Shown: positions 24,501-30,500, counted from the stretch's first letter. The stretch: 64,000 nt of DNA from Escherichia coli (GCF_022846255.1 NZ_AP025682.1), one strand, 5' to 3'. Program-made: the numbers.

Positions 24501-27500
24501 CACTGCAACTACTGCCGGCAAGTTCATTTATGATGATGACTTTGATTTTTATACTAACCTGCTTGCTGAAAATCAGCTCGATCTGAATCCCGGAGAGAAA
24601 ACGATTGATGCACAGATAATGGATCTCGCGGATGAGATTGCCTACGCTGCGCATGACCTGGAAGATGCCCTTAGCAGGAACATGGTCACGATTGAAGATA
24701 TTGAATATGAGTTTCAGATTTCTGACGAATTCCGGGGAGCGAGGGAACAGTTCAGGGAAATCGTTACTCAGTCGAGAAACACCGCTTTTCAGGCTAACTT
24801 ACTGAAAACCTCAGAAGAATTTGCCATCATATTCCGCAAGGAGTTAACTTCAAATATTGTCAATCGCCTCGTTGCTGATATTTCTGTAGTAACGAACCTG
24901 AATGGTTTTCAGGAACTGGGATTCGGGAAACTGAATGCGTTATCCGAAGGGCTCAAAAAACTTCTCTTTAAAGTCATCATGCGAAAACGTAATATCCTCA
25001 CCTATGAGTTCAGGGGAAATAAAATAATCAGGGATTTATATGACTTTTACAATGAAGGAGAGAATTATAAATTTCTGCCTCCTGAACTTAAATTCACCTT
25101 ACCCCAACCAGATTCCTGTATATTTGAAATCAGCAAAAAACGAGCAGTGGTTGACTATATTTCAGGTATGATGGATACATTTGCAGTCAAGGAATGGGAA
25201 ACTCACTGTCTGAAGTAACACTGTCGATTACCAGAGGCGCATATTTTCCCGTTATGGTTATTGCGCCTTTATTCCGTTTCGGTGACAGGTTATTTTAAAT
25301 ATTCTGGAAATGCGTTGATGGGCAAGAACAATTACCCTGAAAATAAATACAGGAAATGGTTTTCCACAGCAATAACATATCTTATTACAGGTGGTTTGTG
25401 CTGGTATATGTTGTGGGCATCCGCTATATCTCATTATACTGTTTTACAAAATACGGTACCTGAATGGACAACATATTTTTGCACCGGTATAATCACCGGA
25501 TCTCTTTCTTTTATTTATGCATTTTATATCCGCACCTTTAACAGAACATTAAAGTATTTATTAAATGCATTCACGGGGGGATTTTGTCTTGGATTTATAC
25601 TGAGTCTGAACTGTTACGATGTCTGTGTTTATCTTTTTCCGGATAAGGTTATTAGCTATGAATCTGAATATGATGTTGTTTTTCCGGGACCATCAAGAGG
25701 AAAGTATGGACATTGTGAAGCGGGACTCTGGTTGAAAGATCAAAACACTTCCAGATGGATACAACTTTGTACAAATAAAGAGTTCCTGCGCAGTCACCAT
25801 AAACAGGGGATGACAGGTGTATGGGTAACAGCTCGTGTTAATAAAATTGGGTCGTATATCGTGAAATATGAATTTATCTATATGTAGGTAAAAGCTGACA
25901 TGTTTACCATGGATGAGTTGCTATATTTTTGCGCATACAGGAGTAATCGATTACTGGCTATACTAAAAATACAGAGAAAAGCTATCCCGGGATAAAGATT
26001 ACCAACTCACAGAGACAAGCCTTGCCTTATAAACAGATAAATATCATCAACACAGATTCAGAAGCTGAAGCAGTAAGCCATGGTAAACTGCCTGCTGCCA
26101 GTACAGATAAAACAATCAGTCTCGCTGACTGGCTCTTATCACTATCGTTATTTCATAACTCTACAGTATAACTCATTTATCTTTATTGCCATATATTAGC
26201 ATGAAGTCAGGCATTTTCATTCCCTGCCGATAATATATCAACTCCGGAGAAGTGTTTACTATATATTCCTTGATATTAATACAGATCAAAATATATATTG
26301 CTGTTATTCATAATCAGGACCAGATGATACTTCCTGAGATATAAGAAAATCATCAAGAGAACCTCCGGCTTTTATAGCCTCTGCTATGGCCTTAGGCCGA
26401 CGTCCTTGTCCATTCCAGTACATTCTTTTACCGTTATCGTCATACTCGTATTTATGCCCTCCTGACACACTTTTTCTGCCTGCCTGTGACTTTTTGCCAA
26501 ATTCACGATAAAAATCTTCCAGAGATATACCATGTTCATCCATGAGTGATTTGATAGCTTTCATATTTTCCTTTCGCTCATTACGTTGCTGAATAGCTAT
26601 GTCAAAGTTTTCCTTAACCTTATTTAAATCTTCATCAGACATTTCTATAACCAGTTTTTTAACAAAGTCAATACTCAGAAGTAATGCCCGGTAAGTAATG
26701 AACTCTTCATTTTCAAAAGGAATTTTCTTCTTACTCATTTATTAACACTCAGCTTTTCATTCATTTATGGCAAATCCTATCAGGTGATTCACCATAAAAA
26801 TAATATGTGTATCACATTTTTCGGTACTTAATCGTCACTTCCTTTCCGAAGGAAAGGCCATCGCAGAAAGTAAGAGAACGTTCTTTGTATTTGATACTTA
26901 GCGAAATTGCGCCGGTCACTACTTGTCTGAGTCCATTCACTTTCGTTAATGTTAATGAGAAAAACCCGCAGTATGATGCGTAATTTCATCAAACTGATGA
27001 AATTCGGTAGCAATCATATATCTGGTGTAGCCTGCATATTCGCAGGAACACGAATATCGATTATACTAATGGACTAACAATCTTCAGCCTCTTCAAGAAG
27101 ATGTTATAAATACACACAGATACTGATTCTCATCCCTTTCAGGCCTGGAACACTATTTCTGCTTTTTAGCATCATCTGGTAGCAATACTTTCCAGGTATG
27201 TCGCCCCATTTTTGTTCGTCTCCATTTTTTTAAGAAGTGCTCAAGTGAAAAACTTTTTACCTCTCCGGGAGTTGTCGTATTTGCTGATATTGTTCGTTTG
27301 TTTAAAGAACCTACTGGTCTTGCCATTAATATTACCTGCTGATTGCTTCACGCCCGGACTCCTCGCACTGTGCGCGGGTTATTGTTTCGTTTTCAGCCCC
27401 GGGGTCGCCAAGGCTCTGGATGGGGTACTACTTCCATTGACAGCATGAGGTAACAATACTGATGGTAACGCTGACCATTAACCGTAAACCACAGGGCATT

Positions 27501-30500
27501 TTCAGTAAATCACCGGCAACGCCGCTGCAGGATAAAACGAACACTGCACATAACGTGAAGGCCAGGGAACGGATACCACAGTTGAACGATAAACAGAGCC
27601 CTGCTCTGCTGAAAAAACACCGTGGCGGCATATGACAAAACGCCAGCGTAAAAACCGTGAGCGTATTAATCGTCTTGTGGAACACTGGCCTGAGTTATTC
27701 AACCGGGAAAAACCCCAACCGCTTAAAGTTGAGATATCTGACGACCTGATACAGGATATCGCCATCAGAGAACTGGCGTTTAGCGCAGGTGCATTACGCG
27801 CGGCAGTAGCGTCTTATGTGCAGTCTCCGCGCTATTACCGTGCGTTAATGGCAGGTGGCGCCCGTTACGACCTGAAGGGGCAACCGTGCGGGGAGGTGAC
27901 ACCACATGAACAGAAAGAGGCAGAGACCCGTTTAATGATGCTGAATGACCGACGAAAAGCCAGAAAGCGTTGATTCACTAAGCTGTAATCAATGTACAGC
28001 GCTGTACCGGACGATGGGTAATGGCGGTCACAACCGGTAACCCCAGAGACAATGTGACTGTTTTTAACGCAACATACTGGCCGGATGTATCACCCCGGGC
28101 GACCTGAAAACACTTTTCCACCCGGCATTGTCCGCCAGCGCTTATCACCTGCCAGGTCTGTTGTAGTAAATCCACCAGTTGTGAACATTCTTCATCAACT
28201 GTCACACTGGCTCGCGGATGGCAAATGCTCGTCTGGCTGAGCAGCAACAGGCATCGCATTGTTGCTCCTCCATGTTGTTCCCGCAACCAGCGTAATACCA
28301 CCGGCGATGATGGACTGGCCGTGTGATTACGCTCAGTAATACGTTCGTGCACCTGTCGATAAAAGGAAGTACAGAATGCATAAATCTGTTGCCCGTTGAT
28401 ATTTCCTTCTGCCGAATGGAGTGTGAAGTGAAATGCCAGCAGATGTGGCCAGTGGTCCACCGCCTGCTGAATAAAACGCCGGATATCTCCCGGCTCTGAA
28501 AGTAAGGCTTCGGTTATTTGCACGGAATACGACTCCTTCAGACTCTGTTGAATTTTGTTAAGCCGGTGCAGACACACGGGAAAATACGCATCAACACCGG
28601 CACGATACGATACAAACACCAGTGACTGGTGATACGAATGGAATGACGAATACGTCAGAAAGGAATACCCCCCGCTGGCTGACAGGAGGGTATCAGCAGG
28701 AAGATGAACGGGAATGTCGCCAGCACCAGGGACAGGGCTGATTTCCACAATACCAGCGCCGGCATTTTGCACATCGCCAGCGTACCGGTATTACAACACG
28801 TTTCATGCAGCAGCTCCTCGTGACTCCTCGATTCGCTGCTGCATCCACTGCTCCACTTCGCTTTTGTACCAGCGGCTGCTGCGACCCAGTTTGATGGGTT
28901 TAGGAAAATGGCCTTCACTGATCAGCTTGTAAAACCATTTGTCAGTCATACCGGTGAAGCTGGTGATGTAGTTCATGTCGATCAGGGGATCGTCGGCACG
29001 CAGCAACACGCTGTCGTGGCTTATTGTTGTCAACATGGTCAGAATGTCCTCTGTGAGATTTATGAAGGTTGGGCAAATGCGGGTGAATCTGCTGAACGGA
29101 GTTTTCAGAGCTGGCCTGCTACGGGATACCAAGGATTACCAGCGAGGCAACGGGCTTCCGGATCGCACACTCCACGGCGATCGCGGGCGAAATCACTGAA
29201 CGCCCATATCAACTCTTTGAGGATGTCTTCGCAGTCCGGTGAACGACTGTCCAGCAGCACATCCCGGGTGATCTGCTTCTGGTACGGTGCCGCTTCATCC
29301 GGTGACGCGAAGCCCAGTACGTTGCTCCAGGCATCCAGAATCAACCGATCCAGTTCAGGGCCATCGAAATGCTCCTGTCTGACGCACAGCACCACGTGGT
29401 ATTCCGGCTTTTCCGGATGACGGGTCAGGAGCCAGCAAAGGTCGCGTCCGGGTTTCGCATTCATCAGCGCACTGACGGTTTCGATAAAATCCATACCAAA
29501 CCAGGTCGTTCTGCTGTTGAAGGTATTGTCATATTCACACGGTAGACGAAGCAGGATCCGCCGTACCCGGGAGCAGGACTGTTCACGCAGCGCACGCTCA
29601 AGAACGCCGATGACTTTGCTCTGATAAGATGGCCAGAAGGGGGCAAGGCTATCGTCGAAATAAGGAATAGCATTCATAAGATATGCTCCGTTATGCGCAG
29701 CCCACAACGCGTCCTGCCCGTGAATGAGCTGACGTGTTATGGCTTGCGGATGAGATTGATGGAATAAGTGAAGAACTGAAGCAGAACGGGAAGATAAGGG
29801 ACAGAACACCGGATACAGGTTCAGGATGAATGATCTCCGTTGACTTCAGTTCACATCATTAATCAATGCGGTAAGTTTTTACCGACGGAGTGTTTCCAGG
29901 AGCGGAGGCTCAGGCCTTAAGCTTCAGAAGTGAGGCTTACGAGGACGCCCTGCAGCAGGACGTTCAGGAACTTCATTGCAGCCGTAGGCACACAGCCCGT
30001 CTTTTTGCTCTTCTTTCGCCAGATAATGCAGGGCACCGCGAATATTATCGATGCTTTCAGGATCGTTGTGGCGCACAGGAATGTTGATGTTGTATGTATA
30101 ATGCGGCTGATATGTACAGCGGTGTGCCGAACCGCTGTTATGCGTAATAGACCGCCAGCATTCCGTAATCCGCTCCGCAAAGGGATATATTTTTTTAACC
30201 CTCTGACGATCGATCCAGAAAACCGCATGCGCATGAAAACCATGATCAACCGTCCATTCAATCACCCAGAAGAAGCCAACGATATTTTCAAATTGTTCCA
30301 CCTGCTCCAGCAGCATACGCAACTGCAATTCAAGCCAGCGATGATCAGGTTGTAAGAAATCAGGCGTATCTTTCCTGTAGAAGAAATCCATGCGTAAGGC
30401 CCGCAGGCAGGAATAGCGTGCCATCATTTGATTGATGTGATTGTCAAGTAAAGCGGTAAAAAACCAGTTTGGTGTGTAAGATTTAGGCATGTTGATGACT

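What the first reader, a model, noticed from the sequence alone, without database searches (positions are those of the whole stretch)
26304..27973. Divergently arranged H-NS paralog and ProQ/FinO-domain paralog inside the island
A xenogeneic-silencer-type protein (H-NS-like C-terminal DNA-binding motif) and a FinO-domain RNA chaperone are encoded back to back around an 890-bp AT-rich intergenic region. Island-encoded H-NS paralogs are known to modulate silencing; an adjacent ProQ-like protein suggests a combined transcriptional/post-transcriptional regulatory cassette for island genes.
Basis: partly seen in the sequence, partly recalled or inferred. Interest (0 to 1): 0.5.

Follow-up and report, generated by a model that had tools for sequence, protein, structure and literature searches.

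The report
Island H-NS paralogue beside broken FinO gene
Both domain calls are right, but the two genes are neighbours by accident of island assembly: an intact, very divergent H-NS-type DNA silencer gene was dropped in as cargo next to a frameshifted FinO/ProQ gene from the island backbone.

Summary
Both ORFs exist at the stated coordinates, and profile searches confirm both domains. The 144-aa ORF is an H-NS family protein (Pfam C-terminal domain 4e-11, N-terminal domain 6e-6). The 113-aa ORF is a complete FinO/ProQ domain (Pfam 2e-24).

The "cassette" reading does not hold.
- The FinO ORF is the 3' part of a roughly 170-aa gene. A 5-nt duplication at 27601-27610 breaks it. Its N-terminal 57 codons are a separate ORF (27462-27635) whose TGA overlaps the ATG at 27632.
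- The supposed 890-bp AT-rich spacer therefore holds coding sequence and a conserved 57-aa gene (27153-27326, minus strand). Only the 414 bp next to H-NS are AT-rich.
- The FinO gene belongs to a conserved island backbone (small ORF, FinO, UCP030791, AlpA, YagK/YfjJ). That backbone occurs in about 850-1100 of 5426 complete E. coli genomes, with different upstream cargo. Only about 200 genomes carry this H-NS gene there.
- A 61%-identical 146-aa paralogue lies on the other side of the backbone in other islands.
- Intact FinO relatives sit in satellite-like elements beside primase, SSB and PerC, never beside H-NS.
- At least three independent frameshift lineages, plus further stops and truncations, point to decay of the FinO gene.

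The H-NS paralogue looks functional. Overall this is ordinary and of low-to-moderate interest.

The parts
26304..26738 (-). Intact H-NS family gene (144 aa, 'H-NS144'). It has an N-terminal helical oligomerisation-type domain, a flexible linker, and a C-terminal DNA-binding domain with the QGR motif (Q111-G112-R113).
   Evidence: Pfam PF00816 4.4e-11 and PF22470 6.3e-6. PDB StpA/H-NS C-terminal domains 8.5e-8 and 2.1e-6. AlphaFold2 pLDDT 81.6, with helices 11-21, 23-32, 35-68 and 73-80, a beta-hairpin 97-108 and helix 116-123. Foldseek to 2L93, TM 0.70. Intact in 7 of 8 loci examined; dN/dS 0.46-0.5 against the 146-aa form.
26739..26844 (-). About 105 bp immediately upstream of the H-NS start (31% GC), conserved between the 144-aa and 146-aa paralogue loci. 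Probably the 5' UTR and promoter-proximal region that travels with the gene.
   Evidence: 74% identity to the upstream region of the 146-aa genes in L007-L012, L019, L025 and L028. Alignment; GC.
26982..27004 (.). Perfect 9-bp inverted repeat (AATTTCATC-N5-GATGAAATT) in the AT-rich spacer upstream of H-NS. Role unknown: operator or transcript-end hairpin.
   Evidence: Folded energy -11.8 kcal/mol, z = -4.1, 0 of 200 shuffles as stable.
27153..27326 (-). Small conserved gene (57 aa), divergent from the FinO gene and part of the FinO-side backbone.
   Evidence: phrog_21027 4.6e-10. Homologous 65-aa ORF in satellite-like elements L014/L015/L017 (61% over 33 aa, 4e-9). Carries an internal stop in L004/L019/L025-type islands. 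Annotated as WP_155367546.1.
27418..27461 (+). 44 bp immediately upstream of the ancestral FinO start, conserved in every context. Contains a GAGG Shine-Dalgarno-like element.
   Evidence: 88-93% identity (93% in most) in all backbone loci, whatever the upstream cargo. Alignment A1.
27462..27635 (+). N-terminal fragment ORF (57 aa) of the ancestral ~170-aa FinO/ProQ gene. It ends at a TGA that overlaps the ATG at 27632.
   Evidence: Matches the N-terminus MVTLTINRKPQGIF... of intact 168-171-aa homologues P0006, P0009 and P0011. The exact product is listed in 20,022 blocks of the assembly collection.
27601..27617 (+). Frameshift lesion: a CTGCT-CTGCT 5-nt duplication followed by GAAAAAAC (intact alleles have GATAAAAC).
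   Evidence: Alignment A1 against L005 and the intact alleles. Identical in all frameshifted copies examined.
27632..27973 (+). Complete FinO/ProQ RNA-binding domain ORF (113 aa) downstream of the frameshift. Expression is uncertain.
   Evidence: PF04352 2.1e-24. PDB ProQ 5NB9 3e-11 and FinO 1DVO 4e-11, with the RY...R-x-DL motif retained. NCBIfam FinO and ProQ scores below cut-off.
27978..28526 (-). UCP030791 / YagK-YfjJ-type backbone gene, convergent with the FinO gene. It is the constant partner of the FinO gene in all islands.
   Evidence: Pfam PF27752 on the equivalent gene in L009, L012, L018-L032.
23965..25887 (+). Cargo that usually accompanies H-NS144: an anti-phage dGTPase (23965-25218) and a 189-aa unknown protein (25318-25887).
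   Evidence: PADLOC dGTPase 1.3e-110. Same block in L001-L003, L018, L020, L022 and L027. Replaced by IS66 in E24377A.

Best explanation
Two unrelated modules abut here.

1. H-NS144 is an intact, very divergent member of the H-NS family. It arrived as part of an AT-rich (36-37% GC) cargo block (IS remnant, anti-phage dGTPase, 189-aa protein, H-NS144). By inference from the family, it binds AT-rich DNA through its QGR minor-groove hook. It would oligomerise through its own helical N-terminal domain and so act as an island-borne xenogeneic silencer or 'stealth' factor for the AT-rich island DNA.

2. The FinO/ProQ gene belongs to the conserved backbone of this class of tRNA-inserted islands: small 57-aa gene, FinO, UCP030791, AlpA, 191-aa gene, YagK/YfjJ. 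That backbone is related to satellite-like elements, where intact FinO homologues lie next to primase, SSB and PerC. In this window a 5-nt duplication has split the gene. The 113-aa FinO-domain ORF is most likely a decaying remnant, or at best weakly made by re-initiation at the overlapping ATGA.

Shown: the domains, the frameshift, the variable neighbourhoods, and the recurrent independent lesions. Inferred: DNA silencing by H-NS144 and loss of function of the FinO gene.
For: Domains.

Frameshift: intact homologues of 158-180 aa share the N-terminus encoded by 27462-27635. Alignment A1 shows the CTGCT duplication in the window, L001-L004 and L006. PGAP flags the gene as 'frameshifted'.

Backbone versus cargo:
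- The same FinO-UCP030791-AlpA-191aa-188aa module occurs with dGTPase/H-NS144, DndBCDE, ECs1377-like, pap fimbriae or T6SS upstream.
- Homology to other contexts starts at 27187, 27263 or 27418.
- GC jumps from 37-38% to 52% at 27327.

Counts in 5426 complete E. coli genomes: the 2.2-kb pair in 200; H-NS144 (>=95% identity) in 205; the FinO gene in 1096, of which 842 cover >=80% of the query.

The 146-aa paralogue sits on the other side of the backbone.

Decay of the FinO gene:
- A second frameshift lineage (L005 type) is >=99% identical in 345 genomes, and a third is seen in H93.
- Within the 5-nt-duplication lineage there is a premature stop (L003, L020/L022/L027), an RYYRAL to HYSCAL change (L001/L018) and a truncation by insertion (L021).
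- Recent differences among frameshifted alleles are mostly non-synonymous (Nd:Sd 5:0, 6:0, 8:2), against dN/dS 0.15 between intact alleles.
- Truncated forms carry more changes at columns that are >=95% conserved in full-length forms (2.8 vs 1.3, Mann-Whitney p = 4e-4).

Intact relatives in satellite-like elements have no H-NS nearby.
Against: - The window's own FinO ORF is uninterrupted and keeps the motif residues aligned with the RNA-binding surface of ProQ and FinO. Its start overlaps the upstream stop (ATGA), an arrangement that can support translational coupling.
- FinO-domain-only proteins are functional in other bacteria: NMB1681, and ProQ 6S10 (Lpp1663 by my recollection) (PMC9977716).
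- The frameshifted allele is extremely widespread (20,022 blocks). This could reflect hitch-hiking, but also tolerance or usefulness.
- The selection tests use few, non-independent and recombining sequences.
- H-NS144 is essentially always next to this FinO gene in E. coli (200 of ~205 genomes). A local functional link specific to this island variant cannot be excluded.
- No expression, DNA-binding or RNA-binding data were available.
Confidence: 0.62

Rival explanations
1. Gene fission that remains functional. The 57-aa ORF is translated, and ribosomes terminating at TGA (27633-27635) re-initiate at the overlapping ATG (27632). This yields a minimal FinO-domain RNA chaperone that still acts on island or host RNAs.
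For: ATGA overlap. Complete FinO domain with the conserved RY...R-x-DL residues. The ORF is intact in 6 of 10 contexts returned for the frameshifted allele. Minimal FinO-domain proteins exist (PMC9977716). The allele is very widespread.
Against: - There is no good Shine-Dalgarno sequence before 27632 (my reading).
- The ATGA is simply the native Met-Thr codons read out of frame. The Met is Ile in an intact allele (L033), so it is not a conserved internal start.
- Further stops, truncations and motif changes occur in sister copies.
- Recent changes are in excess non-synonymous, and conserved columns are hit more often.
- The fragment loses the basic, Trp-containing segment (KTPWRH) that precedes the domain in intact homologues.
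Confidence: 0.27
2. One reading: H-NS144 and the FinO-domain protein form a co-adapted regulatory cassette for island genes, one silencing transcription and the other acting on RNA, expressed from a shared divergent control region.
For: Head-to-head orientation. Nearly all E. coli genomes with H-NS144 have it beside this FinO gene, even when the far side is replaced by IS66. Large plasmids such as IncF carry both an H-NS homologue and FinO (PMC7544231 for HppF; FinO on F-like plasmids in PMC9977716).
Against: - The association is one-sided and consistent with a single insertion inherited by descent.
- A separate gene and a compositional boundary lie between the two genes.
- The FinO gene is frameshifted here and in most carriers.
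- The sister H-NS146 sits elsewhere in the island.
- Intact FinO relatives never have H-NS nearby.
- No Rfam RNA or convincing terminator lies in the spacer.
Confidence: 0.06
3. Programmed -1 ribosomal frameshift. Slippage on CUG-AAA-AAA-C (27609-27618) moves ribosomes into the FinO frame. This would give a full-length protein (...SPALLKK-TPWRHMTKRQ...) in addition to the 57-aa product.
For: A -1 slip on the A6 run restores exactly the native KTPWRHMTKRQ reading (my reading). The A6 run is present in all 5-nt-duplication alleles, whereas intact alleles have GATAAAAC. The allele is very common.
Against: - The heptamer is G-AAA-AAA rather than a canonical A-AAA-AAG/A.
- There is no stimulatory structure downstream (z = +0.9), and no upstream SD-like stimulator is evident.
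- The T-to-A change is one of many differences between the alleles.
- Downstream decay in sister copies argues against maintained function.
Confidence: 0.04

Closest known systems
Horizontally acquired H-NS homologues of Enterobacteriaceae: Hfp/HNS2 on asnW/serU and EARL islands, HlpC, Sfh/HppH on IncHI plasmids, Sfx/HppX (Fitzgerald et al. 2020, PMC7544231; Pina-Iturbe et al. 2020, PMC7074111)
   Same: - Encoded on a tRNA-inserted genomic island.
- Full-length two-domain architecture.
- Conserved QGR DNA-binding motif and C-terminal fold.
- AT-rich gene and surroundings.
- Sporadic distribution (438 of 5426 E. coli genomes carry the 144- or 146-aa form).
   Different: - Much more divergent from H-NS and StpA than Hfp is described to be. 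Only the last 55 residues align with E. coli H-NS by BLASTP (47%).
- NCBIfam StpA and H-NS scores are 63 and 35 bits, against cut-offs of 202 and 211.
- It forms its own 50%-identity cluster, with the nearest full-length relatives at <=46% identity.
- It sits at pheU-type, CP4-like islands rather than asnW/serU.
- I could not map it onto the published clades because no reference sequences were available in my tools. I found no paper describing it.
FinO (F-like plasmids), ProQ, FopA, RocC and minimal ProQ proteins NMB1681 and Lpp1663 (Liao & Smirnov 2023, PMC9977716)
   Same: - Complete FinO domain (PF04352).
- Best structural-sequence matches are ProQ 5NB9 and FinO 1DVO.
- Intact relatives have a basic N-terminal extension like FinO.
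- Carried on a mobile element, as FinO and FopA are.
   Different: - Here the gene is split by a frameshift, and only the domain-only ORF remains.
- No cognate antisense or terminator-type RNA was identified nearby.
- The clade's intact members are chromosomal, in satellite-like elements next to primase/SSB/PerC, not in conjugation or competence loci.
- NCBIfam FinO and ProQ cut-offs are not reached (65 vs 136 bits; 54 vs 127 bits).
CP4-57 / CP4-6-type cryptic integrative elements of E. coli (AlpA, YfjJ/YagK, antirestriction, YeeU-CbtA) and PICI-like phage satellites
   Same: - tRNA-adjacent integrase.
- AlpA, YagK/YfjJ (inovirus Gp2-like), GTPase, DUF932, antirestriction, JAB/RadC and CbtA/YeeU genes downstream.
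- The small ORF and the FinO gene have homologues in int-AlpA-AntA/Bro-DUF4222-primase-SSB-ProQ-PerC elements.
   Different: - The pheU island here lacks the primase/SSB replication module next to the FinO gene.
- It is heavily IS-ridden and carries defence and fimbrial cargo.
- As far as I recall, K-12 CP4 elements have no FinO gene (not tested here).

Membership tests
H-NS family (Pfam Histone_HNS) | C-terminal DNA-binding domain with the fold of the H-NS/StpA C-terminal domain | tested here: met
   PF00816 4.4e-11, residues 96-133. PDB 2LRX (StpA) 8.5e-8 and 1HNR 2.1e-6. Foldseek to 2L93, TM 0.70, probability 1.00.
H-NS family (Pfam Histone_HNS) | Q-G-R 'AT-hook-like' minor-groove motif within T/N-W-x-G-Q-G-R-x-P | tested here: met
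   WNGQGRRP at residues 108-115. W108, G110, G112 and P115 are invariant and R113 nearly invariant in a 50-sequence alignment. The role of the motif is taken from PMC7544231.
H-NS family (Pfam Histone_HNS) | N-terminal helical dimerisation/oligomerisation domain (two interfaces) | tested here: inconclusive
   PF22470 6.3e-6, residues 19-76. AlphaFold2 helices 11-21, 23-32, 35-68 and 73-80 have the expected pattern. However, there is no pairwise similarity to the H-NS N-terminus and no Foldseek hit for this part. Oligomerisation itself was not tested.
H-NS family (Pfam Histone_HNS) | Binds and silences AT-rich DNA; forms hetero-oligomers with host H-NS/StpA | not testable with these tools
   Needs ChIP-seq, EMSA, two-hybrid assays or complementation of an hns mutant.
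H-NS or StpA orthologue (NCBIfam equivalogs NF008193, NF007656) | Score above the curated cut-off | tested here: not met
   H-NS 34.5 bits against a cut-off of 211. StpA 62.8 bits against a cut-off of 202.
Hfp / HlpC clades of Fitzgerald et al. 2020 | Phylogenetic placement with the reference sequences of those clades | not tested
   Accession numbers are listed but the sequences are not retrievable with my tools. The known Hfp location (asnW/serU) differs from pheU. HlpC is reported in only 3 of the 20 E. coli strains in the paper's Table S1, whereas this family is in 438 of 5426 genomes.
FinO/ProQ family (PF04352) | Complete FinO domain | tested here: met
   PF04352 2.1e-24, model positions 3-107 of 109. 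ProQ 5NB9 3e-11 and FinO 1DVO 4e-11.
FinO/ProQ family (PF04352) | Conserved RNA-contacting residues of the concave face (equivalents of ProQ Tyr70 and Arg80) | tested here: met
   The alignment to ProQ shows S-P-R-Y-Y-R-A-L opposite S-W-R-Y-L-Y, and G-A-R-Y-D-L opposite G-A-T-R-V-D-L. Which residues matter is from my recollection of the ProQ mutagenesis literature.
FinO/ProQ family (PF04352) | Uninterrupted gene of the length seen in its own clade (158-180 aa, with a basic N-terminal extension) | tested here: not met
   The 5-nt duplication splits the gene into 57-aa and 113-aa ORFs.
FinO/ProQ family (PF04352) | Cognate structured RNA (antisense or terminator hairpin) encoded nearby | tested here: inconclusive
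   No Rfam match at E <= 1 in 25800-28300. The terminator-like sites are weak and no more stable than shuffles.
Co-inherited two-gene regulatory cassette | The two genes stay adjacent across independent genomic contexts and lineages | tested here: not met
   The FinO gene occurs with five or more other upstream neighbourhoods. H-NS146 is at a different island position. Distant FinO relatives have no H-NS nearby.

The most novel reading that the evidence does not exclude
The 144/146-aa proteins are a so-far unclassified, deep-branching H-NS clade private to CP4/satellite-derived tRNA islands of Enterobacteriaceae. In the loci sampled, each island carries at most one copy, at either of two positions. 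Its oligomerisation domain is so divergent that it would build its own filaments, insulated from host H-NS and StpA. It would thereby give the island a private silencer for its AT-rich defence and virulence cargo.
Probability: 0.25. Interest if true: 0.45.

Novelty: new member of a known kind. Interest (0 to 1): 0.22.

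Why it matters
Island-borne H-NS homologues tune how foreign DNA is silenced, so a common but uncharacterised clade is a reasonable target for ChIP-seq and genetics. This one is present in about 8% of complete E. coli genomes and sits next to anti-phage genes.

The FinO result is mainly a caution. A clean-looking domain ORF can be the tail of a broken gene, and adjacency inside a mosaic island is weak evidence of functional coupling.

There is also a side lead. Intact members of this FinO clade are conserved next to primase, SSB and PerC in satellite-like elements of Escherichia, Salmonella and Citrobacter. This suggests an RNA-based control of satellite replication or gene expression that I did not find described.

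Tried and rejected
- **Rfam.** The gathering scan of the whole window found only tRNA-Phe, AfaR and isrC. The E <= 1 scan of 25800-28300 found nothing. So there is no known sRNA between the genes.
- **Promoter and terminator scan of 26000-28200.** Promoter-like sites were at chance level. Terminator-like sites were slightly enriched (4 against 1.4 expected). The two between the genes that I folded were no more stable than shuffles (z = +0.6 and +0.9).
- **Stimulatory structure for frameshifting at 27600-27660.** None found.
- **Foldseek of the H-NS144 model against the PDB.** Only the C-terminal domain matched, so the N-terminal domain could not be confirmed structurally.
- **Phage collection (tblastn).** No close relatives of either protein; best matches were 39-40% identity over partial length.
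- **PADLOC.** Neither protein belongs to a listed defence system.
- **Literature searches.** I searched for an H-NS/FinO pairing, for this paralogue and for FinO genes in satellites, and found nothing specific. I could not map the protein to HlpC or Hfp from the accession tables.
- **Search for an attR copy of the tRNA-Phe 3' end.** None within 3 mismatches.
- **Not run.** I did not run the expensive genome contigs or metagenome scans, because the E. coli and exact-protein look-ups already answered the linkage question.

Full report
**What is at the coordinates.**

The window carries a ~43-kb island at tRNA-Phe (pheU). The left flank is dsbD at 889-2667, the tRNA is at 3386-3461, and a P4-type integrase ORF is at 3596-4924. 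On the right flank, cadC starts at 47200, followed by cadBA, lysU, dcuS, dcuB and fumB.

Both domain assignments hold.
- The 144-aa protein matches Pfam Histone_HNS (4.4e-11) and Histone_HNS_N (6.3e-6). It also matches the solved C-terminal domains of StpA and H-NS.
- The 113-aa protein matches Pfam ProQ/FINO at 2.1e-24 over essentially the whole model. It also matches the solved structures of ProQ, FinO, NMB1681 and RocC.
- Neither protein reaches the NCBIfam cut-offs for H-NS, StpA, FinO or ProQ. They are family members, not orthologues of the named proteins.

**The FinO ORF is a fragment.**

Close homologues are mostly 158-180 aa and start MVTLTINRKPQGIF.... In the window that N-terminus is a separate 57-codon ORF (27462-27635). 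Its TGA overlaps the ATG at 27632.

An alignment with other E. coli copies locates the lesion: a CTGCT duplication at 27601-27610. Beside it, the sequence GATAAAAC of intact alleles reads GAAAAAAC. NCBI's pipeline annotates the same gene as 'frameshifted' in near-identical genomes, or as two CDS.

The ATGA overlap is just the native Met-Thr codons read out of frame. The Met is Ile in one intact allele, so nothing suggests a designed internal start.

**The spacer is not an 890-bp AT-rich intergenic region.**

The spacer holds a conserved 57-aa gene on the minus strand (27153-27326). That gene matches phrog_21027 and has a homologue in satellite-like elements. The spacer also holds the 170 nt of FinO N-terminal coding sequence.

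Only 26739-27152 is AT-rich (37% GC). 27327-27461 is 53% GC. The first ~105 bp upstream of the H-NS start are 74% identical to the upstream region of a sister paralogue, so they belong to the H-NS unit.

**Are the two genes a unit?**

Counts in the 5426 complete E. coli genomes:

| Feature | Genomes |
|---|---|
| 2.2-kb region with both genes (>=80% coverage) | 200 |
| H-NS144 at >=95% identity | 205 |
| FinO gene, any match | 1096 |
| FinO gene, >=80% coverage | 842 |

The FinO gene is always followed by the same convergent UCP030791 gene, then AlpA, a 191-aa gene and a YagK/YfjJ gene. What lies upstream of it varies:
- dGTPase, a 189-aa gene and H-NS144;
- DndBCDE;
- an ECs1377-like gene;
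- pap fimbriae;
- T6SS genes;
- IS elements.

Homology between contexts begins at 27187, 27263 or 27418. It coincides with a jump in GC content.

A 146-aa paralogue, 61% identical to H-NS144, is common in the same island family. It sits about 5 kb away on the other side of the backbone, in islands that lack H-NS144.

More distant, intact FinO homologues (66-74% identity) in E. coli, Salmonella and Citrobacter lie in different elements: integrase, AlpA, AntA/Bro, DUF4222, primase, (SSB), ProQ, PerC. One has capsid, portal and terminase genes. None has an H-NS gene within 6-7 kb.

So H-NS144 is cargo inserted once beside a backbone gene and inherited with it. In E24377A an IS66 has replaced the dGTPase side, yet the H-NS-FinO junction persists. 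That fits descent rather than selection for the pair.

**State of the FinO gene.**

Three independent frameshift lineages exist.
- The 5-nt duplication. Its exact 57-aa product is listed in 20,022 blocks of the assembly collection. It corresponds to roughly 322 complete genomes, the 95-99% identity band.
- A -2/+1 double frameshift (L005 type), >=99% identical in 345 genomes.
- A third lesion in H93.

An intact 158-aa allele is >=99% identical in only 52 genomes.

Within the 5-nt-duplication lineage, sister copies carry further damage:
- a premature stop (L003, L020/L022/L027);
- RYYRAL changed to HYSCAL (L001/L018);
- truncation by an insertion (L021).

Two selection tests point the same way. 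Recent differences among frameshifted alleles are mostly non-synonymous (5:0, 6:0, 8:2), whereas two intact alleles differ with dN/dS 0.15. N-terminally truncated forms in the protein database carry more substitutions at columns that are >=95% conserved among full-length forms (mean 2.8 vs 1.3, p = 4e-4). Both tests use few, related and recombining sequences, so they are suggestive only.

The window's own copy is still an open 113-codon ORF with the key motif residues. A low level of domain-only protein made by termination and re-initiation therefore cannot be excluded. A -1 slip on CUG-AAA-AAA-C would restore the native frame, but there is no canonical heptamer or stimulatory structure.

**The H-NS paralogue.**

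H-NS144 is intact in 7 of 8 loci examined. It evolves under moderate constraint relative to the 146-aa form (dN/dS about 0.46-0.5).

Its C-terminal domain is canonical, with WNGQGRRP at residues 108-115 and Foldseek TM 0.70 to 2L93.

The N-terminal half is recognised only by the Pfam profile. The AlphaFold2 model (pLDDT 81.6) gives the H-NS-like pattern of two short helices, a long helix and a short helix, followed by a disordered linker. Against E. coli H-NS only the last 55 residues align.

In a library of 1.84 billion representatives the protein forms its own cluster. The nearest full-length relatives are at <=46% identity and E about 1e-12.

Published classifications list H-NS, StpA, Hfp, HlpC, HlpP and the plasmid Hpp clades (PMC7544231). 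I could not place this protein among them, and I found no paper on it.

By inference from the family, it binds AT-rich DNA and silences or buffers the AT-rich island segment. Whether it co-oligomerises with host H-NS is open.

**Verdict.**

The locus combines a new, divergent member of a known kind (an island-borne H-NS homologue) with a decaying FinO gene of the island backbone. Their proximity is best explained by mosaic island assembly.

Noticed in passing
L013-L017, L034, L040-L042 (relatives of window 27462-27973): Intact 165-180-aa members of this FinO clade are conserved directly after primase/helicase (DUF927, D5 or AAA_25) and often SSB. PerC often follows. The elements are small int-AlpA-AntA/Bro-DUF4222 elements of E. 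coli, Salmonella and Citrobacter. One (L034) also has capsid, protease, portal and terminase genes, like a capsid-forming PICI. A FinO-domain gene as a regular satellite replication-module component was not found in the literature I searched.
   Followed up: partly
window 27153-27326 (-): A 57-aa gene lies between the H-NS and FinO genes (phrog_21027). It has a homologue in the satellite-like elements next to a DUF3950 gene. It is intact here but carries an internal stop in the ECs1377-context islands.
   Followed up: partly
window 26982-27004: A perfect 9-bp inverted repeat (AATTTCATC AAACT GATGAAATT) is far more stable than shuffles (z = -4.1). On the minus strand it is followed about 14 nt later by CTGCGGGTTTTTC. 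It may be the transcript end of the small gene or an operator upstream of H-NS.
   Followed up: partly
window 26841-26857: A perfect 7-bp palindrome (CCTTTCC GAA GGAAAGG) lies exactly where the similarity between the upstream regions of the 144-aa and 146-aa H-NS genes ends.
   Followed up: no
window 23965-25218 and 32883-34781: Defence cargo flanks the locus. There is a dGTPase-type anti-phage gene (PADLOC 1.3e-110). There is also a 632-aa protein with an N-terminal AAA/RecF-like ATPase motif weakly similar to retron Eco8, PtuA and MADS3 effectors. The island backbone appears to act as a defence-gene landing pad: other copies carry Dnd, Mrr-like or Kiwa genes.
   Followed up: partly
window 5974-6230 and 12410-12532: The Rfam sRNAs AfaR (270 bits) and isrC (135 bits) lie in the left part of the same island, near a fimbrial usher gene (6724-9312).
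   Followed up: no
L004, L007, L036 (E. coli genomes): NCBI annotates the 146-aa H-NS paralogue as a 116-aa protein (WP_001342701.1) from a downstream start. The upstream in-frame MSKKK start that is conserved with H-NS144 gives 146 aa. L036 holds a 71-aa C-terminal remnant.
   Followed up: partly
window 27973-27978: The stop codons of the FinO ORF and the convergent UCP030791 gene are only 4 nt apart (18 nt in alleles without a 20-nt deletion). The two mRNAs must therefore overlap at their 3' ends, giving a natural sense-antisense pair next to a gene for an RNA-duplexing protein.
   Followed up: no
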